Both the position numbers and the translations under genes were made by a program. Source: Minisyncoccota bacterium (lineage in GTDB: Bacteria > Patescibacteriota > Minisyncoccia > Phycocordibacterales > GWA1-40-21). From it: DNA of 64,000 nucleotides. Location: NCBI GenBank assembly GCA_041663045.1, contig JBAZRH010000001.1:1817-65816 (forward strand), written 5' to 3'. Shown in pieces: positions 62-44,283 of the stretch (its first letter is position 1; the number at the start of each line of letters is the position of its first letter). The notes under the pieces were generated by a model. It saw only the letters and a program-made list of their open reading frames with translations, was not told the DNA's origin and searched no databases.

Positions 62-138
62 CCTATGGAGGTCGGCTTTTTATTGTATTAATTCATTTTT
101 TCTGCTATATTTTCTCGTGAAAGGATGATGCCCTGCGT

Positions 139-208
139 GGGCGTATAGCTCAGGTGGTTGAGCGGACAATCCTTGCGAATCTCGGATTGTCCTAATAAGA
201 CGAGGTCC
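139..208 (+). pseudogene. partial tRNA-Ile-like copy (5' two-thirds only)
   Basis: Acceptor 5' strand and D-arm identical to the intact tRNA-Ile at 235. The anticodon region is replaced by a perfect hairpin (ggacaatcc...ggattgtcc). No T-arm or 3' acceptor strand. Confidence 0.5.
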
Positions 209-234
209 TTTAAAATTCATTTGGTATTCAAAGT

Positions 235-308
235 GGGCGTATAGCTCAGGTGGTTAGAGCGCGTCACTGATAATGACGAGGTCCCAAGTTCGAGTCTTGG
301 TACGCCCA
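235..308 (+). tRNA. tRNA-Ile (anticodon GAT)
   Basis: Cloverleaf readable by eye. Acceptor gggcgta/tacgccc, D-arm tagctcaggtggttagagc, anticodon loop ctGATaa, T-arm ccaagttcgagtcttgg. No encoded CCA. Confidence 0.9.
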
Positions 309-316
309 CATTTTTA

Positions 317-360
317 AAATTCAAAGGCGGTTTTGCGAAGCAAAACCGCCTTTGAATTTT
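317..360 (+). terminator. rho-independent terminator
   Basis: Perfect 19-bp stem (aaaattcaaaggcggttttgc / gcaaaaccgcctttgaatttt) ending in a T-run. Confidence 0.7.
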
Positions 361-388
361 ACCCATACTAATGTAATATTTACTTTAT

Positions 389-426
389 GGGCGCGTGGCG
401 AAATTGGCAGACGCATACGCGACAGG
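389..426 (+). pseudogene. 5' half of a tRNA-Leu-like gene (acceptor and D-arm only)
   Basis: gggcgcg + tggcgaaattggcagacgc. The D-arm is 19/19 identical to the intact tRNA-Leu at 553. No matching 3' anticodon stem follows. Its acceptor strand is exactly complementary to the 3' fragment at 662-668. Confidence 0.5.
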
Positions 427-552
427 TTTGTTAGCTTATTAAAAAGCTAACAAAAGACGGAATAAAATTATTAGCAAATAATTTTATGAGTCGGGGTCGC
501 GACCGAATTTTGCGACGGCAAAATGAGAGTTGTGACCGTGATGATTTTTAGT

Positions 553-636
553 GCCGCGGTGGCGAAATTGGCAGACGCGCTACGTTCAGGTCGTAGTTCT
601 CGCAAGAGAATGGGAGTTCAAGTCTCCCCCGCGGCA
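553..636 (+). tRNA. tRNA-Leu (anticodon CAG), type II with long variable arm
   Basis: Acceptor gccgcgg/ccgcggc, anticodon stem ctacg/cgtag with loop ttCAGgt, long variable arm, T-arm gggagttcaagtctccc. Confidence 0.9.
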
Positions 637-644
637 CATTATTT

Positions 645-669
645 GGAGGTTCAAGTCTCCCCGCGCCCA
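645..669 (+). pseudogene. 3' tRNA fragment (T-arm and acceptor 3' strand)
   Basis: ggaggttcaagtctccc + cgcgccc + a. The acceptor strand is the exact reverse complement of gggcgcg at 389-395. It lies 8 nt downstream of the intact tRNA-Leu. Confidence 0.5.
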
Positions 670-680
670 CAAAGTAAACT

Positions 681-2018
681 ATGAAAAATTACAAAGAATA
701 TTTTAAAGATAAAAAGGTGGTGATAATGGGTTTGGGGTTATTGGGCGGGGCGCTTAATGACGCTATCTTTTTGGCTGGCTGTGGCGCAGAGTTAACTATC
801 ACTGATTTGAAATCAAAATCAGAACTTGCACCATCGCTTAAAAAGCTTTCTAAATTCAAGAATATTAAATATGTTTTAGGTCACCATGATTTAGAAGATT
901 TTAAAAAAGCCGATTTCATACTTCAGCCTGGGAATGTGCCAGTAGATTCCCCATATCTGGCAGAGGCTAAAAAAAATAATATTCCAATTCACGAAAGTGA
1001 GTCATTATTTATGGAATATGCAGAAAATATAAAAGTCGTCGGAGTGACAGGTACTAGAGGGAAGACCACCACCACTTGCTTGATCTATGAAATATCAAAA
1101 TCTGTTTTTGGTAGGAAAGTTCATCTAGGTGGAAATGTGAAGGGTAAGTCTACTTTATCTCTACTAAAAGATATTCGGGAGGGCGACCTTGTTGTATTAG
1201 AACTAGACTCTTGGTGTTTACACGGTTTTGGCGATATCGGAAAGAGTCCGCATATTTCTGTCTTCACAAATCTGATGTCTGACCATCTGAACTATTATTT
1301 AAAAGGCAGTAAAGATGAAAAAGAAGCGGAGCAGAAATATTTTAGTGATAAGGCGCAAGTATATTTAAATCAAAAGAAAGAAGATTTTCTAATATGTGGA
1401 GAAAAAATTGCTAAGAGAATCGGCAGGGTAGAAAGTCAGAAGATTATTGTCGGCAAAGAGAATGTCTCCAAAGACTGGAAGCTGAAAATAAAAGGCGAGC
1501 ATAACCTTGAAAATATTTCTTGTGCTGTGAAGGTCGCAGAAATTCTTGATGTACCGATGAATAAAATAAAAAAAGCGGTAGAAAAGTTCTCTGGTGTAGA
1601 AGGGAGGCAAGAATTTTTGCGAGAATACAGAGGTGTGAAAATTTATAATGACACGACTGCTACAACACCCGATGCGACAATCGTTGCTCTAAAATCGCTA
1701 GGGGATTTGAAGCAGAAGAATATTATCTTAATAATGGGTGGAGCGGATAAAAATCTTGATATGTCGGGATTTATAAATGAGGTGCCAAAATACTGCAAAA
1801 AAGTGATTTTATTGGCCGGAACAGGCACGGAAAAACTGGGAGGTAAGATAGACGGGGTAGTGGTAAAAAGCCTCAAGGAAGGGCTTTTAGAGGCCTTAAA
1901 AGGGGCGAAAAAAGGGGATATTTTGCTATTCAGTCCGGCTTTTGCCTCCCTCGGTATGTTTACCAACGAATTTGATAGGGGAGAACAATTTGTACGGCTA
2001 ATTAAAGCCTTGAAATAG
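681..2018 (+). CDS. murD: UDP-N-acetylmuramoylalanine--D-glutamate ligase (Mur ligase family)
   Basis: N-terminal Rossmann motif VVIMGLGLLGG and Mur ligase P-loop GVTGTRGKTTTT. Length 445 aa. Adjacent to murC. Confidence 0.8.
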   Translation: MKNYKEYFKDKKVVIMGLGLLGGALNDAIFLAGCGAELTITDLKSKSELAPSLKKLSKFKNIKYVLGHHDLEDFKKADFILQPGNVPVDSPYLAEAKKNNIPIHESESLFMEYAENIKVVGVTGTRGKTTTTCLIYEISKSVFGRKVHLGGNVKGKSTLSLLKDIREGDLVVLELDSWCLHGFGDIGKSPHISVFTNLMSDHLNYYLKGSKDEKEAEQKYFSDKAQVYLNQKKEDFLICGEKIAKRIGRVESQKIIVGKENVSKDWKLKIKGEHNLENISCAVKVAEILDVPMNKIKKAVEKFSGVEGRQEFLREYRGVKIYNDTTATTPDATIVALKSLGDLKQKNIILIMGGADKNLDMSGFINEVPKYCKKVILLAGTGTEKLGGKIDGVVVKSLKEGLLEALKGAKKGDILLFSPAFASLGMFTNEFDRGEQFVRLIKALK

Positions 2019-2230: not shown

Positions 2231-3139
2231 ATGGAAAAGCAAGAAAAGTTCGTTGTAATGGATAGTGGTGCGTGGACATGGTACAACAATCACGTGGTTC
2301 TCGACGAAGGCAAACGGACACGTCCCCGCAATATGTTGCCCCTATCCGCACTCGCTGAAGTGACCATGGCCCTTGGCCGGCCACTGACGCAATCCGACCT
2401 GAGTGTTTTGGTCGGCAAGGATGGTTCGAAGGCCAAGTGCGGAATTTGCGGCGAGGAATTTCAGCCTGTGCGTTTTGCCATCATTGATGACGATGCGCTC
2501 ATGTTGATCTCCGAAAGCAAAGCCGTCCTCGAGGATATGTTCCTCTACGGTGGAAGCTTCATGGAACATCAGGAGCGGATTTATCCGCTTTGTGGTGGCC
2601 TCTGGCTCTTCGACCCGACCAGGAAGGATTCCCATGGCGAGTGGTATAGCCTTAACCCACAGACTTGTCTGGGTCAGAAACTCGACGAGTTCGGTAGGGA
2701 CAAGAGCGGGGCAATTCGTCCGACACTCACTCTCGCGGATGTCGAAGAAATTCGCGAAAAGGAACGTGAGGCGCGGGCGAAGAAGACCACTAAGATTGAG
2801 GGTGGCACGGTCATCGAGCTCGTCGGCGACTGCGGTGGCATGGTGAAATTCGTGCAAGGAGGTGTGGTGAAGGGAAATGAGTCCTGTACCATCTACCTCG
2901 GTACCCGTCGTCATCTCACTTTTGATCAAAATGGCATTCGTTTTGCCGAAAAGGTCAAGGAGAGACATCCCAAGGGTATATCCCGCGGGATGAATATTGT
3001 GTACGAACGCAATCGAGTCGGTGACAAAAGTGAAGCGTTCGGTTGGGCCCCGGCACACGAATACGATGAAGTCCTCAAGAAGTATCAGCAGGCCTTCTCG
3101 AAATCCGAGCCGAAGCCGCAGGTAGTTGTAGCAGCCTAA
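2231..3139 (+). CDS. hypothetical protein encoded on a high-GC island
   Basis: Intact 302-aa ORF with GGAGAG RBS. GC is markedly higher than the flanks. Own AT-rich promoter region and two downstream terminators. No recognisable motifs. Confidence 0.6.
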   Translation: MEKQEKFVVMDSGAWTWYNNHVVLDEGKRTRPRNMLPLSALAEVTMALGRPLTQSDLSVLVGKDGSKAKCGICGEEFQPVRFAIIDDDALMLISESKAVLEDMFLYGGSFMEHQERIYPLCGGLWLFDPTRKDSHGEWYSLNPQTCLGQKLDEFGRDKSGAIRPTLTLADVEEIREKEREARAKKTTKIEGGTVIELVGDCGGMVKFVQGGVVKGNESCTIYLGTRRHLTFDQNGIRFAEKVKERHPKGISRGMNIVYERNRVGDKSEAFGWAPAHEYDEVLKKYQQAFSKSEPKPQVVVAA

Positions 3140-7914: not shown

Positions 7915-9837
7915 ATGGATCCTGAAAGAATCACATATTTTGGAGAGACAGATTCTAGAAGCAAACGTGTTAAATTTGGCATTAAAGCGAAAGACAGAAC
8001 TCGTCATGTTTATGTTATAGGTAAAACAGGTATGGGTAAGTCTACTTTACTTGAAAATATGGCAATTCAGGATTTGAAAAACGGCGAGGGTATGGCTTTT
8101 ATGGATCCGCATGGTAAAACAGCTGAGCTTCTGCTTGATTATATTCCTCCAGAGAGAATAAAAGATATTGTTTACTTTGCTCCCTTTGATACTAATTATC
8201 CGATATCTTTCAATGTGCTTGAAGATGTCGGTTATGATAAACGACACTTGGTAGTTTCTGGGCTGATGAGTACATTCAAGAAGATTTGGGTGGACGCTTG
8301 GTCTGCTAGGATGGAGTATATTCTTACAAACACCCTTCTTGCACTTATTGAATATCCAGACGCAACACTTCTTGGTGTAAACAGAATGCTTGCAGATAAA
8401 GAATATAGAAAGAAAGTGGTGGATAATGTAAAAGATCCCTCGGTCAAATCTTTTTGGGTTGATGAGTTTGCAAAGTATACAGATAAATTTGCTGCTGAAG
8501 CCACTCCCGCTATTCAGAATAAGGTTGGTCAATTTACTTCAAACCCATTGATAAGAAATATCGTCGGTCAACCTAAATCCACCATCGATATTCGAAAGAT
8601 GATGGATGAGAAGAAGATTTTAATTATAAACCTTTCCAAAGGAAAAGTGGGGGAGGCGAATGCGAATCTTCTCGGCTCGATGCTTATTACGAAGATCTAT
8701 CTTGCAGCCATGTCTCGTGCAGATGTGCCGGAGAAAAAACTTAAACTATTACCAAATTTTTATCTTTATGTAGATGAATTTCAGTCTTTTGCTAACGAAT
8801 CTTTTGCAGACATTCTTTCAGAGGCAAGGAAATATAAACTCAATCTTACTATTGCTCATCAATACATTGAACAAATGTCAGATGAAGTACGGGCCGCCGT
8901 CTTTGGAAACGTCGGAACATTTATAACCTTTAGAGTGGGTGCTATAGATGCAGAAGTCCTTGAAAAAGAATTTGCTCCTCAGTTTACAGCAGAAGATCTT
9001 GTAAACCTTGGTATCTTTCAGATGTATTTAAAACTCATGATAGACGGGGTAAGCTCTGTGCCATTTTCGGCATCTTCATTACCACCAATTCCCGAACCCG
9101 TTATCTCATACAAGTCAGAGATTGTAGAAAGCTCCAGAAGACAATTTGCACAACCAAGAGCTGGTGTGGAGCAGGCTATCAATAATTGGCATGAGGAAGG
9201 AAAGGGTCCAACAGAATGGCAAAAGAAACAGGAAAAAGTTGGGAAGATACCTCAACAACCAAGATCTTTTAATGCACCCCCTAACCCTTTTGGATTTAAT
9301 GGTGGGGCGAATACTAGTAGAGAAAAAAGTTACTCAAATGATAATTATAAACAGCGACCGACTCAAGCTCGACCCGTTGTGATGCCAGTAGTGAATCCTG
9401 AAGTCGTTGAGCAACCCAAAGACGAAGTTATAAGACGAGATACGCAAACGAAGAAGTCAGAAACAAAGCCTACTAGAGTAGAGATTTTTGATAAAGATAT
9501 AAGTGACGACTTTGTTCCACTCAAAGCTGTGGCTCCCCAAATAATTGCACAGGAGAAAAAGGTTGAGCAGGCTATGAATAGGAATCCGGTAGTGGAGAAT
9601 AATAAAAATATTGTCAAAAAAGACGGGAAGATAATGAGTAGAGAAAATCTATCGGCTTTGCAGTTGGCGCTTCAGCAAGCTCTGAAAAGTAATACTTTAC
9701 ATACGGATAAGAAAGCAGAAAAGGGCGTGTCGGAGAGAGAAAAAAGTTCTGGCGTACCCACTACTCCATCTCCAAAATCAGAATCCATCCACAAACCATC
9801 CGCCGAAGAGCTTAAGAAAGTTCTCGGAGTAGAATAA
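7915..9837 (+). CDS. VirD4/TraG/TraD-like P-loop ATPase with ~230-aa low-complexity K/E/P/Q-rich C-terminal tail
   Basis: Walker A VIGKTGMGKST, MAFMDPHG, Walker B YLYVDEF, SEARKYKLNLTIAHQ (TraG-D_C-like). No TM segments. Confidence 0.5.
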   Translation: MDPERITYFGETDSRSKRVKFGIKAKDRTRHVYVIGKTGMGKSTLLENMAIQDLKNGEGMAFMDPHGKTAELLLDYIPPERIKDIVYFAPFDTNYPISFNVLEDVGYDKRHLVVSGLMSTFKKIWVDAWSARMEYILTNTLLALIEYPDATLLGVNRMLADKEYRKKVVDNVKDPSVKSFWVDEFAKYTDKFAAEATPAIQNKVGQFTSNPLIRNIVGQPKSTIDIRKMMDEKKILIINLSKGKVGEANANLLGSMLITKIYLAAMSRADVPEKKLKLLPNFYLYVDEFQSFANESFADILSEARKYKLNLTIAHQYIEQMSDEVRAAVFGNVGTFITFRVGAIDAEVLEKEFAPQFTAEDLVNLGIFQMYLKLMIDGVSSVPFSASSLPPIPEPVISYKSEIVESSRRQFAQPRAGVEQAINNWHEEGKGPTEWQKKQEKVGKIPQQPRSFNAPPNPFGFNGGANTSREKSYSNDNYKQRPTQARPVVMPVVNPEVVEQPKDEVIRRDTQTKKSETKPTRVEIFDKDISDDFVPLKAVAPQIIAQEKKVEQAMNRNPVVENNKNIVKKDGKIMSRENLSALQLALQQALKSNTLHTDKKAEKGVSEREKSSGVPTTPSPKSESIHKPSAEELKKVLGVE

Positions 9838-43611: not shown

Positions 43612-44283
43612 TTATTTCTTAGTCGTAGTCGCTGTGCTTGTCGCTGTCTCTTTAAGTTCCGGTATGAGCTTCTCCAAAGCATCTTTCTCTTGAAAACCAG
43701 TAAATGCCTTACCTTTAACTATAATAACAGGGAAGTCTGATTTTACTTTATATATTGAGGCAAGGGTTTTCACTGCTGGGCTGTCGAGATCATAGTCAAA
43801 AGAATACACCCTGAGCTTAGGATAATTCTCTCGAAGATATGTAAGTACATAGCCTTGTTTCCTGCAATCCGAACAGTCATTTGTATAAAAATATATCAAA
43901 GAAACCGGTTTGATATCGCATTTGTCGGCGATTTTTTCCATAAGTAGATAATCTTTGATTTCAAGTAGGGAGTAGTACTTTTTTAAATATAATAATTCCG
44001 GATCGTTCTGGCTCATCTGGTCTTCCATATAAGAGAGCTTTTCGGCAATACTGTTCATCTCTTTTGAGAATTCAGAATCAGCGACATTTTTGCAGGCAGC
44101 TCCTTCAAGGAGGGCGAATTGAGTTTCAGAAGACAAGACATCGAGAGATATCTTTTCTCCCATAGATTTGATCTGCGCGGTTTTTTTATTATCAATATAG
44201 TTACTTAAAGATATGGCGGTAATGAATATCGCAAGTGTGATAATAAATGCATATAGATATATTTTCCAGTCAGTTTTCTTCAT
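43612..44283 (-). CDS. membrane-anchored thioredoxin-fold protein (CxxC)
   Basis: N-terminal TM helix, CSDC active-site-like motif in a thioredoxin-like region, T-rich C-terminal tail. Confidence 0.5.
   Translation of the reverse strand: MKKTDWKIYLYAFIITLAIFITAISLSNYIDNKKTAQIKSMGEKISLDVLSSETQFALLEGAACKNVADSEFSKEMNSIAEKLSYMEDQMSQNDPELLYLKKYYSLLEIKDYLLMEKIADKCDIKPVSLIYFYTNDCSDCRKQGYVLTYLRENYPKLRVYSFDYDLDSPAVKTLASIYKVKSDFPVIIVKGKAFTGFQEKDALEKLIPELKETATSTATTTKK

What the first reader, a model, noticed from the sequence alone, without database searches (positions are those of the whole stretch)
139..669. tRNA cluster with partial tRNA copies, including a split tRNA-Leu-like gene whose cognate halves flank an intact tRNA-Leu(CAG)
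Upstream of the intact tRNA-Ile (235-308) sits a 5' two-thirds copy (139-208) with the same acceptor and D-arm, its anticodon region replaced by a perfect hairpin. At 389-426 there is a tRNA 5' half (gggcgcg + a D-arm 19/19 identical to tRNA-Leu). At 645-669 there is a T-arm plus 3' acceptor strand cgcgccc, the exact complement of that 5' half and not of the inner tRNA. The two halves look like one gene interrupted by a 218-bp segment (427-644) that carries a complete, different tRNA-Leu(CAG) and a 10-bp hairpin (ttgttagctt/aagctaacaa). I could not reconstruct a mature cloverleaf by simple splicing, because the anticodon 3' strand and variable arm are missing. So this is either a decayed tandem duplication, a scar from an integration or excision event at a tRNA hotspot, or a noncanonical intron-containing or split tRNA of the kind reported in reduced genomes.
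Basis: seen in the sequence. Interest (0 to 1): 0.6.

Follow-up and report, generated by a model that had tools for sequence, protein, structure and literature searches.

The report
Broken tRNA genes around replacement copies
In this small-genome (Patescibacteria) bacterium, the resident tRNA-Leu gene was split by a 217-bp insert that carries a complete replacement tRNA-Leu plus a conserved folded element seen beside broken tRNA copies in related genomes, so this is a gene-replacement scar and not a working split tRNA.

Summary
A 5' part of tRNA-Ile (139-208) lies upstream of the intact tRNA-Ile(GAU). The two ends of a tRNA-Leu (389-426 and 644-669) flank an intact but different tRNA-Leu(CAG) at 553-637.

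The outer halves are remnants of the resident tRNA-Leu(CAG). Relatives carry that gene intact at the same spot, directly 5' of murD with the same trailer. Nineteen nucleotides are missing (anticodon-stem 3' strand and variable arm), U33 is lost, and ARAGORN in intron mode finds no outer tRNA. It is therefore not a split or intron-containing tRNA.

It is also not plain decay. The same architecture occurs in L159 (murD 86% nt identity) and partly in L087 (71%). The 5' half (38/38) and an ~85-nt hairpin module (80/86) are far better conserved than neutral sites (68%).

The module has no Rfam match, and one helix is supported by covariation. Members lie next to partial tRNA-Leu, tRNA-Ile and one other tRNA copy in at least 11 related loci, four times inside the T loop of a duplicated tRNA 3' end.

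Best reading: in-situ replacement of tRNA genes linked to a small structured element. Whether that element is mobile DNA or a processed RNA is unresolved.

The parts
103..111 (+). Extended -10-like promoter element TGCTATATT upstream of the tRNA-Ile unit
   Evidence: Read. The same TTGCTATATTTT motif lies upstream of tRNA-Ile, or of its outermost 5' relic, in L085, L137, L157, L089, L162 and L165/L166. Promoter function is inferred, not tested.
139..208 (+). Partial tRNA-Ile copy: acceptor 5' strand, D arm, hairpin X, then CTAATAA-GACGAGGTCC. There is no T arm and no 3' acceptor strand.
   Evidence: Exact repeats 137-159 = 233-255 and 199-208 = 275-284. It is not called as a tRNA by ARAGORN or Rfam.
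164..192 (+). Hairpin X (GGACAATCC-TTGCGAATCTC-GGATTGTCC), which replaces the 5' strand of the anticodon stem
   Evidence: 9-bp perfect inverted repeat. Homologous hairpins sit at the same place in tRNA-Ile-like copies of L089 and L082. The loop TTSCGARTCTC is conserved, and 3 of 7 stem pairs are changed on both sides.
235..309 (+). Intact tRNA-Ile(GAU)
   Evidence: ARAGORN; Rfam tRNA 71.3 bits.
315..361 (+). Perfect 22-bp hairpin after tRNA-Ile (terminator-like or processing stem)
   Evidence: Inverted repeat I1, 100% complementary. Relatives also have a hairpin of different sequence right after the intact tRNA.
372..379 (+). -10-like TGTAATAT upstream of the tRNA-Leu 5' half
   Evidence: TGTAATAT is in the window and L159; TGTAGTAT is in L087 and L083 at the same distance. 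Homology between the window and L159 begins at 369. Function is inferred.
389..426 (+). 5' part of the resident ('type A') tRNA-Leu(CAG): acceptor 5' strand, D arm, anticodon-stem 5' strand, then GACAGG
   Evidence: 96.9% identical over 32 nt to the intact tRNA-Leu of L137, with alignments. It is 38/38 identical to L159, against 68% identity at neutral sites.
427..454 (+). Hairpin H1 at the break point
   Evidence: Inverted repeat I3. Two compensatory pairs relative to L159, and a longer unrelated hairpin at the same place in L087.
455..540 (+). Conserved structured module: hairpin H2 (462-487), helix H3 (495-503 with 529-537), and hairpin H4 (507-524, GACG loop) enclosed by H3
   Evidence: 93% identical to L159 and 94% to L087, against 86% and 71% for murD DNA. 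H3: 98.5% of cells paired, 4 of 9 pairs changed on both sides, 0 of 500 shuffles reach the score. Covariance model R1 scores 68.3 bits at 485-540, the only copy in the window. No Rfam family matches.
553..637 (+). Intact ('type B') tRNA-Leu(CAG), the functional gene
   Evidence: ARAGORN and Rfam 50.8 bits. It is the same type as the sole tRNA-Leu(CAG) directly 5' of murD in L001/L081 and L083. It is 85/85 identical to L159.
644..669 (+). 3' remnant of the resident type A tRNA-Leu: T arm, 3' acceptor strand and discriminator
   Evidence: Matches the 3' end and the CACAAA trailer of intact type A genes in L157, L137, L082 and L175. It is 22/26 identical to L159. The 13 nt TTCAAGTCTCCCC are shared with the inner tRNA, which suggests gene conversion.
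681..2018 (+). murD-like Mur ligase gene, used as the synteny anchor
   Evidence: Mur_ligase_M and Mur_ligase_C domains on the identical protein P0001. Relatives were retrieved with it.

Best explanation
The region is one tRNA transcription area in which two functional genes, tRNA-Ile(GAU) at 235-309 and tRNA-Leu(CAG) at 553-637, sit among pieces of older copies of themselves.

For tRNA-Leu, the resident gene was broken after its anticodon region by a 217-bp insert (427-643). That resident gene is 'type A', with acceptor GGGCGCG/CGCGCCC, and it lies directly 5' of murD. The insert carries hairpin H1, an ~85-nt conserved hairpin module and a complete, differently built 'type B' tRNA-Leu(CAG). 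About 19 nt of the old gene were lost.

Only the inner tRNA can be a tRNA. It is probably transcribed from the old gene's promoter (-10-like box at 372-379). That would make the old 5' half, H1 and the module a 164-nt structured 5' leader, cut off by RNase P at 552/553.

The module belongs to a family of structured elements found in related Paceibacteria. They lie inside or beside disabled tRNA copies, next to an intact copy. I infer that this element family is tied to the way tRNA genes are replaced in place in these genomes, either as a small non-autonomous insertion element or as an RNA co-processed with tRNAs.

Shown:
- the anatomy and the homology of the outer halves to intact orthologues;
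- conservation of the arrangement in relatives;
- covariation in the module, and the family's association with partial tRNA copies.

Inferred:
- the promoter and RNase P processing;
- the order of events;
- the nature of the module.
For: 1. Outer halves are the resident gene. The 5' half is 31/32 identical to L137's intact tRNA-Leu(CAG). The 3' fragment plus its trailer CGCGCCCACAAA matches intact type A genes that lie 4-12 nt from the murD ATG in L157, L082 and L175.

2. The inner gene is a different lineage of the same isoacceptor. It is the same type as the sole tRNA-Leu(CAG) directly 5' of murD in L001/L081 and L083.

3. The outer gene cannot fold. ARAGORN in intron mode is negative, and the anticodon-stem 3' strand and variable arm are missing.

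4. The arrangement is inherited. L159 has the whole architecture, and L087 has the 5' half, a hairpin, the module and the tRNA.

5. The leader is under constraint. Against L159, the 5' half is 38/38, the module 80/86 and the inner tRNA 85/85, versus 68% at murD fourfold sites and 8/14 in the upstream leader.

6. The module is structured.
- In H3, 98.5% of cells are paired, 4 of 9 pairs have double changes, and 0 of 500 shuffles reach the score. Slid controls give 26-47% paired.
- An invariant G-U pair points to the sense strand.
- There are compensatory changes in H1 and H4.
- Model R1 finds an instance that was not used to build it, L175, at 47.7 bits and E = 3e-11.

7. Family context.
- In L175, L085, L082 and L165 the module sits in a three-way junction. 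That junction is closed by an extended T stem of a duplicated tRNA 3' end (15-21-nt direct repeats), downstream of an intact tRNA and a hairpin.
- In L094 the module sits after position 21 of a tRNA-Ile 5' relic.
- L165 and L166, which are 99.65% identical, lose homology exactly at the end of such a relic.
Against: - No recombinase, transposase or other ORF lies in or near the insert. None was found among 10 window ORFs checked.
- There are no terminal inverted repeats or target duplication at the window's junctions, so a mobility mechanism is not shown.
- Only three genomes have the window-type arrangement, and one of them (L087) lacks the 3' remnant.
- The 5' half is too well conserved for a mere scar, which hints at an RNA-level role that this explanation leaves open.
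- Promoter, transcript and processing are inferred from sequence only.
- Covariation evidence comes from 8-9 sequences.
- The order of events (a single cassette insertion versus several steps) cannot be resolved.
Confidence: 0.6

Rival explanations
1. Functional composite precursor ('Russian-doll' tRNA scaffold). In this reading the outer acceptor strand, D arm and T arm are kept because they fold into a tRNA-like scaffold. RNase P and 3' processing enzymes recognise it and release a defined ~164-nt structured RNA (5' half + H1 + module) together with the nested tRNA-Leu. The outer pieces would then be exapted processing signals, and the module would be a non-coding RNA.
For: - The 5' half is 38/38 identical to L159, although neutral sites are 68% identical. 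The 18 nt not shared with the inner tRNA are also unchanged.
- The outer acceptor strands stay 7/7 complementary in the window and L159. They close the predicted fold, with z-scores of -6.6 and -5.5.
- In L087 the 5' half has the acceptor strand of its own inner tRNA (10/10), although about 10 of the remaining 29 nt differ. It can therefore pair with that tRNA's 3' strand.
- The invariant G-U pair in H3 indicates a sense-strand structure.
Against: - The 3' remnant is not conserved as a T arm. The window has an A-C mismatch that was apparently introduced by gene conversion from the inner tRNA, and L087 has no 3' remnant.
- There is no covariation in the outer acceptor, because it is identical in the two informative genomes.
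- There are no expression data.
- Family members in other loci have different flanks: only a T-stem closure, or GTGC.
Confidence: 0.2
2. Classical integrase-mediated integration scars. In this reading prophages or integrative islands integrated into tRNA-Leu and tRNA-Ile and were later deleted, leaving attL/attR-type tRNA fragments and a short remainder of the element.
For: - Relatives show the textbook signature: an intact tRNA followed by a direct repeat of its 3' end starting in the T loop. The repeat is 21 nt in L175, 20 nt in L165 and L085, and 15 nt in L005.
- There is a strain-level breakpoint exactly at such a repeat.
- tRNA fragments left by integrated elements are well documented (PMC9897764), as is T-loop integration by phage Ms6 (PMC1762012).
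Against: - In all ~12 instances the DNA between the repeats is only 90-220 bp, has no integrase, and contains the same conserved, covarying module. Independent random deletions would not leave that.
- In the window the intact tRNA is not a chimaera of native 5' and element 3' parts. It is wholly different from the remnants, 19 nt of the target are lost, and a 5' half is displaced.
- The module was not found in IMG/VR or in GenBank phages.
Confidence: 0.12
3. Decayed local tandem duplications. In this reading each tRNA gene was duplicated in place and one copy is rotting, with the hairpins and module being ordinary spacer sequence.
For: - The tRNA-Ile partial copy shares 23/23 and 10/10 nt with the intact gene 96 bp away. 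It also repeats the 11-nt TTTAAAATTCA that follows the gene.
- Repeated segments show signs of gene conversion.
Against: - tRNA-Leu is nested, not tandem.
- Inner and outer copies differ at 5 of 7 acceptor positions, in the anticodon stem and throughout the variable arm. Each type is the only copy in other relatives.
- The spacer is more conserved than the coding gene and has covariation.
- Hairpin X of the tRNA-Ile copy is shared with L089 and L082 despite about 60% MurD identity, so the copy is old and yet its 5' end still matches the local gene.
Confidence: 0.06
4. A genuine split or intron-containing tRNA-Leu. In this reading the outer halves are joined after removal of a 218-nt intervening sequence that happens to contain another tRNA.
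For: - The acceptor strands are perfectly complementary, and L159 has an intact outer T arm.
- Introns in tRNA genes are common in Patescibacteria (PMC13011429).
- Rfam negatives are weak here, because Rfam also fails on the interrupted tRNA in L166.
Against: - The joined product would lack the anticodon-stem 3' strand and the variable arm. It would have GA at positions 32-33.
- ARAGORN in intron mode is negative.
- The non-tRNA part of the insert is only 126 nt. By my own knowledge the smallest group I introns are about 200 nt.
- L087 lacks the 3' half.
- A fully functional tRNA-Leu(CAG) is already present inside the insert.
Confidence: 0.02

Closest known systems
Partial tRNA genes left at attachment sites of integrative elements (prophages, ICEs, genomic islands). 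Examples are T-loop integration by mycobacteriophage Ms6 (PMC1762012) and the tRNA-fragment survey in PMC9897764. The sublocation classes of Williams 2002 are cited from my own knowledge.
   Same: - Fragments of a tRNA gene lie next to an intact copy.
- In relatives the fragment is a 15-21-nt direct repeat of the tRNA 3' end that starts in the T loop.
- A strain-level breakpoint lies at the repeat.
   Different: - There is no integrase, and the insert is only 90-220 bp.
- The content is a conserved, covarying hairpin module.
- In the window a 5' half is displaced, the replacement tRNA is complete and foreign rather than chimaeric, and target sequence was deleted.
[quoted passage not shown]
   Same: - Same phylum.
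- A structured RNA-like insert interrupts a tRNA gene near the anticodon loop.
- Standard annotation tools miss such genes.
   Different: - Those introns lie within the anticodon loop (33/34 to 36/37), the exons make a complete tRNA, and splicing was shown.
- Here the exons are incomplete and the insert has no recognisable group I core.
- Here the insert contains a whole tRNA, and an intact copy of the same isoacceptor is present.
Archaeal split, tri-split and permuted tRNA genes (Nanoarchaeum equitans, Caldivirga, Cyanidioschyzon); from my own knowledge
   Same: The 5' and 3' tRNA parts are encoded apart, and their acceptor strands are complementary.
   Different: - Archaeal halves are complete and are joined at a bulge-helix-bulge motif by the splicing endonuclease.
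- Here 19 nt are missing, no such motif is evident, the organism is a bacterium, and the halves flank a working gene.
tRNA-like elements used as RNA processing signals or mimics (MALAT1/mascRNA, mitochondrial tRNA punctuation, bacterial YrlA Y-RNA-like RNAs); from my own knowledge
   Same: - A tRNA-like fold (acceptor, D arm, T arm) is attached to another structured RNA.
- A flanking tRNA would define the ends through RNase P.
   Different: - No processing data exist here.
- There was no match to any Rfam family at E up to 10, so no known tRNA-like RNA family was recognised.
- The tRNA-like parts are demonstrably derived from a disrupted resident gene.
Intervening sequences in rRNA genes of candidate-phyla-radiation bacteria (Brown et al. 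2015, from my own knowledge)
   Same: Structured insertions sit in loops of essential structural RNA genes in the same group of organisms.
   Different: Those insertions sit in the only functional rRNA copy and are removed from the transcript. Here the interrupted tRNA copies are incomplete and have an intact copy alongside.

Membership tests
Intron-containing bacterial tRNA (group I intron) | The two exons together encode a complete cloverleaf | tested here: not met
   Compared with intact type A genes, GCGTA and the ~14-nt variable arm are absent, and positions 32-33 are GA. ARAGORN with introns of 0-400 nt and a relaxed threshold finds only the two intact tRNAs.
Intron-containing bacterial tRNA (group I intron) | The intervening sequence has a group I catalytic core | tested here: inconclusive
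   Rfam gives no hit at E up to 10, and the non-tRNA part is only 126 nt. However, Rfam also misses the ~200-nt intervening sequence of an interrupted tRNA in L166, so a negative result is weak.
Intron-containing bacterial tRNA (group I intron) | Insertion within the anticodon loop (33/34 to 36/37 in Patescibacteria, PMC13011429) | tested here: not met
   Homology to intact genes ends at position 31 or 38 on the 5' side and resumes at about position 48 on the 3' side.
Split tRNA (archaeal type) | Two complete halves that pair through leader/trailer sequences at a bulge-helix-bulge motif | tested here: not met
   The halves are incomplete. The 8-bp leader/trailer pairing in the window (379-386 with 671-678) is absent in L159.
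Split tRNA (archaeal type) | Presence of a tRNA splicing endonuclease | not tested
   Only 64 kb of the genome is available. No search was made.
attL/attR tRNA fragment from integrase-mediated integration | The fragment is a direct repeat of the part of the intact tRNA beyond the crossover | tested here: not met
   In the window the 3' fragment (…CGCGCCCA) differs from the intact gene's 3' end (…CCGCGGCA) and shares only 13 nt with it. The feature is met in relatives L175, L165, L085 and L005.
attL/attR tRNA fragment from integrase-mediated integration | An integrase or other element genes lie between the repeats | tested here: not met
   The inserts are 90-220 bp. The only ORF (21 aa) is interrupted in L087. 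No recombinase domain was found in 10 window ORFs. The module is absent from viral and phage collections.
tRNA pseudogene from local tandem duplication | The copy and the intact gene share lineage-specific positions (acceptor, variable arm) | tested here: not met
   For tRNA-Leu, 5 of 7 acceptor positions, the anticodon stem and the variable arm differ. For tRNA-Ile the feature is met: 23/23 and 10/10 identical.
Any described RNA family (Rfam 15) for the 455-540 module | Match to a curated covariance model | tested here: not met
   Nothing apart from tRNAs was found: at E up to 10 in 1-1000, at gathering score in the whole window, or at E up to 0.5 in eight related loci.

The most novel reading that the evidence does not exclude
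The ~85-nt module (with its partner hairpin) may be a previously undescribed small structured element of Paceibacteria. On this reading it enters loops of tRNA genes or transcripts: the D loop in L094, the anticodon region in the window, and the T loop in L175, L085, L082 and L165. It would drive in-place replacement of tRNA genes. In the window lineage the broken gene would have been exapted as a tRNA-like scaffold that delivers the element as a processed non-coding RNA together with a nested tRNA.
Probability: 0.25. Interest if true: 0.75.

Novelty: new variant of a known kind. Interest (0 to 1): 0.5.

Why it matters
- tRNA genes in these very small genomes are usually single-copy and essential. 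This locus shows them being replaced in place by foreign copies of the same isoacceptor, with layered remnants left behind. That is a concrete mechanism for tRNA gene turnover in Patescibacteria.
- The associated module is a conserved structured element with covariation support and no Rfam match. It is tied to tRNA loops, so it is a candidate new mobile element or non-coding RNA class.
- On the practical side, such remnants can mislead tRNA annotation and break short-read assemblies.

Tried and rejected
- Group I intron or another known RNA. Rfam finds only the tRNAs at E up to 10 on 1-1000 and at gathering score on the whole window.
- Outer tRNA with an intron. ARAGORN in intron mode is negative.
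- A peptide gene in the insert. The 21-codon ORF from the ATG at 486 is kept in L159 but has a TGA at codon 10 in L087. The same two substitutions are a compensatory pair in hairpin H4, and there is no ribosome-binding site. I rejected it.
- Leader/trailer pairing of the outer gene (tttacttt/aaagtaaa). It is not conserved in L159, so I treat it as lineage-specific or chance.
- A phage or plasmid origin for the module. Two pattern scans of IMG/VR gave only unrelated hits in a 55% GC phage family, or nothing. blastn against GenBank phages matched only tRNA-Leu genes.
- More relatives with the window-type arrangement. Seven further look-ups did not add a window-type locus. Of two later look-ups, one returned no DNA and one gave L175. 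A second protein search with L087's MurD found nothing closer than 75%.
- An integrase near the tRNAs. None was found among 10 ORFs checked.
- Reading the interrupted tRNA in L166 as a group I intron. Rfam does not confirm it.
- A fuzzy-regex scan of all loci timed out. I replaced it with blastn, nhmmer and a covariance model.
Full report
**Observation.** The window is a low-GC chromosome piece of a Patescibacteria (Paceibacteria-like) bacterium. The closest MurD relatives are MAGs labelled Paceibacteria, Parcubacteria and Saccharibacteria.

- ARAGORN and Rfam find tRNA-Ile(GAU) at 235-309 and tRNA-Leu(CAG) at 553-637.
- The partial copies are real: 137-159 = 233-255 (23/23), 199-208 = 275-284 (10/10), and 395-414 = 559-578 (20/20).
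- GGGCGCG at 389-395 is the exact complement of CGCGCCC at 662-668. Both differ from the inner gene's GCCGCGG/CCGCGGC.
- The hairpins at 164-192 and 427-454 are as described.
- In this window the T stem of the 3' fragment has one mismatch.

**What the outer tRNA-Leu halves are.** I used the adjacent murD-like gene (681-2018) as a synteny anchor and fetched related loci.

- In many relatives a single tRNA-Leu(CAG) lies 4-12 nt upstream of the murD start codon.
- There are two builds of this gene.
  - Type A has acceptor GGGCGCG…CGCGCCC, anticodon stem TACGC/GCGTA, variable arm CGRGRGTAAYYTCA and trailer CACAAA. It occurs in L157, L092, L137, L094 and L082, and L175 carries a close variant.
  - Type B has acceptor GCCRCGG…CCGCGGC, anticodon stem CTACG/CGTAG and variable arm TTCTCGCAAGRGA. 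It occurs in L001/L081, L083 and L085.
- The window's outer pieces are type A. The 5' piece is 31/32 identical to L137, and the 3' piece with its trailer CGCGCCCACAAA matches the type A genes.
- The inner gene is type B.
- The resident type A gene was therefore interrupted. Homology stops at position 31 or 38 and resumes at about position 48. The 19 nt GCGTA plus variable arm are gone, and positions 32-33 read GA.
- ARAGORN allowing 0-400-nt introns at a relaxed threshold finds no outer tRNA.
- A functional split or intron-containing tRNA is therefore excluded by the sequence itself.

**The arrangement is inherited, not a one-off.**

- L159 is a Logan contig from another sample, with murD DNA 85.6% identical. 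It has the same order: 5' half, hairpin, module, type B tRNA, a 5-nt junction, 3' fragment, murD. Its outer T arm is perfect.
- L087 (murD DNA 71% identical) has a 5' half, a longer hairpin, the module and the tRNA, but no 3' fragment.
- A neighbour-joining MurD tree puts these three in one clade together with loci that have simple arrangements.

**The insert is constrained.**

- Between the window and L159, fourfold-degenerate murD sites are 68% identical (n = 149), and the 14 nt upstream of the 5' half are 8/14 identical.
- Against that, the 5' half is 38/38, H1 is 22/28 with compensatory changes, the module is 80/86, the inner tRNA is 85/85 and the 3' fragment is 22/26.
- Under neutrality, 38 unchanged positions have a probability of about 4e-7. 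The 18 positions not shared with the inner tRNA alone give about 1e-3 (my calculation).
- The 5' half is therefore not a freely decaying scar.
- The 3' fragment is less protected. The window's version carries TTCAAGTCTCCCC, which is identical to the inner gene and breaks its own T stem. This looks like gene conversion.

**The module is a structured element without a known family.**

- It folds into hairpin H2 (462-487) and a long helix H3 (495-503 with 529-537) that encloses hairpin H4 (507-524, GACG loop). The fold has z = -6.0.
- In an alignment of eight homologues from eight loci, H3 is 98.5% paired. Four of its nine pairs are changed on both sides, no shuffle of 500 reaches the covariation score, and slid controls drop to 26-47% paired.
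- One G-U pair is invariant, which points to a sense-strand structure.
- A covariance model built from these sequences found only the known copies in 334 kb of related sequence, and one copy in the 64-kb window.
- The model later recognised L175, which had not been used to build it, at 47.7 bits and E = 3e-11.
- Rfam has no match.
- A 21-codon ORF across the module is interrupted in L087 by one member of a compensatory pair, so it is not coding.

**Family context.** The module and a more divergent variant always lie next to tRNA genes and partial tRNA copies.

- L175: intact type A tRNA-Leu, a terminator-like hairpin, AGGATTT, the module, then a 21-nt repeat of the tRNA's T-loop-to-trailer segment right before murD.
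- L085: the same layout for a type B tRNA-Leu with a 20-nt repeat, followed by a further mini-remnant of another type.
- L165/L166: the variant module follows tRNA-Ile with a 20-nt repeat. A second copy in L166 follows another, interrupted tRNA.
- L082: the module follows a tRNA-Ile-like copy.
- L157 and L089: it follows tRNA-Ile.
- L094: it sits after position 21 of a tRNA-Ile 5' relic, upstream of the intact gene.
- In L175, L085, L082 and L165 the predicted fold is a three-way junction. It is closed by a helix made of a remnant T-stem 5' strand and the repeated T-stem 3' strand, extended by 1-4 pairs into former T-loop nucleotides (reading). In effect the module occupies the T loop of a duplicated tRNA 3' end.
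- L165 and L166 are 99.65% identical over 2.6 kb and lose all homology exactly at the end of such a remnant. These sites are therefore recombination breakpoints between close strains.

**The tRNA-Ile part.**

- The copy at 139-208 follows a conserved extended -10-like motif (TGCTATATT, 103-111). In relatives this motif precedes tRNA-Ile or its outermost remnant.
- Its hairpin X is shared with tRNA-Ile-like copies in L089 and L082. The 11-nt loop TTSCGARTCTC is conserved, 3 of 7 stem pairs are changed on both sides, and the following CTRATAA is the same.
- In L089 and L082 the intact tRNA-Ile, flanked by roughly 30-nt mutually complementary leader and trailer, lies inside such a copy. L082 holds several generations of copies with different acceptor stems.
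- The 5' ends of the remnants match the local intact gene in each lineage, which implies gene conversion or repeated re-creation.
- In several relatives the 16S rRNA gene is nearby, so tRNA-Ile is probably the usual rRNA-spacer tRNA.

**Interpretation.**

- The best-supported account is in-place replacement of tRNA genes. A complete copy of the same isoacceptor, of a different lineage, comes to lie within or beside the resident gene together with a small structured element. The resident gene's pieces remain.
- In the window the old promoter region (TGTAATAT at 372-379, conserved in L159 and similar in L087 and L083) is followed by the old 5' half.
- The functional tRNA is therefore probably made from a precursor whose 164-nt leader is removed by RNase P. 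This step is inferred from general knowledge of bacterial tRNA processing.
- The data cannot say whether the module is a non-autonomous mobile element, the core of a processed non-coding RNA, or both.
- For mobility:
  - it occurs with three tRNA identities and at three positions within tRNA copies;
  - direct repeats of the target are present;
  - two paralogous copies lie within 900 nt in L166;
  - a strain-level breakpoint lies at one remnant.
- For an RNA role:
  - sequence conservation is as strong as in tRNAs;
  - one wobble pair is invariant;
  - the closing helices are maintained;
  - the 5' half is conserved, and its acceptor strand always has a 7-nt partner downstream. That partner is the 3' fragment in the window and L159, and the tRNA's own 3' strand in L087.
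- Against classical integrase scars:
  - there are no recombinase genes;
  - the insert is tiny but constant in content;
  - the inner tRNA is not chimaeric;
  - nothing was found in viral or phage collections.

**Comparison with known systems.**

- tRNA fragments at integration sites are common knowledge (PMC9897764, PMC1762012).
- This locus shares features with both but fails defining tests for each (see the membership table).
- I found no description of the module or of nested tRNA replacement in the papers searched. That search covers only open-access text.

**Verdict.** The 'split tRNA' reading is refuted. The locus is a conserved scar of tRNA gene replacement that contains an undescribed structured element. 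Interest is moderate. It would rise if the element proves to be mobile, or if the leader proves to be a processed RNA.

Noticed in passing
L166 minus strand, about 515-255: A tRNA (Asn/Asp-like: GCCAAGATAGCTCAGCTGGTAGAGCACGTCATTG … AATGACGAGGTCCCGGGTTCAAACCCCGGTCTTGGCTCCA) is interrupted in its anticodon loop by about 200 nt. The position fits the group I introns reported for Patescibacteria (PMC13011429). However, neither ARAGORN nor Rfam (E up to 0.01) recognises the tRNA or an intron.
   Followed up: partly
L092 662-1874 and L160: Two murD-like genes face away from each other about 500 nt apart. One of them is preceded by a type A tRNA-Leu(CAG). Some relatives may therefore carry two MurD paralogues, each linked to this tRNA region.
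   Followed up: no
L165 768 / L166 644: Two assemblies encode an identical MurD protein and are 99.65% identical over 2.6 kb. They become unrelated exactly at the 3' end of a tRNA-Ile remnant, which is a strain-level rearrangement or insertion breakpoint.
   Followed up: partly
window 379-386 and 671-678: The 8 nt before the tRNA-Leu 5' half (tttacttt) are complementary to the 8 nt after the 3' fragment (aaagtaaa), which extends the outer acceptor helix. The upstream arm is not conserved in L159.
   Followed up: yes
L159 336-363: The hairpin that corresponds to H1 contains GCTCTTTAAC. This resembles the boxA antitermination element of rRNA operons (TGCTCTTTAACAA in E. coli, from my own knowledge). 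The window's version (GCTTATTAAAA) is less similar.
   Followed up: no
L082 1952-3503; L085 1-947; L094 1-264; L165 1-185: A 16S rRNA gene lies within 0.7-1.2 kb of the tRNA-Ile region in several relatives, in varying orientation. tRNA-Ile itself is inverted relative to murD in L081, L082, L077 and L165. The region is rearrangement-prone.
   Followed up: partly
L005 2888-3076 (complete genome CP174359.1): tRNA-Ile is followed by a hairpin, a 130-nt GC-rich structured segment and a 15-nt repeat of the tRNA 3' end. The layout is analogous to the module loci, but the sequence is not recognisably related.
   Followed up: no
window 2231-3139 and 43612-44283: ORFs of 302 aa and 223 aa have no Pfam match. 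The first is conserved in position next to murD in L158 and L159.
   Followed up: no
window 7915-9837: A 640-aa ORF has a weak precomputed hit to TrwB_AAD_bind, the type IV coupling-protein family (annotation of L158).
   Followed up: no
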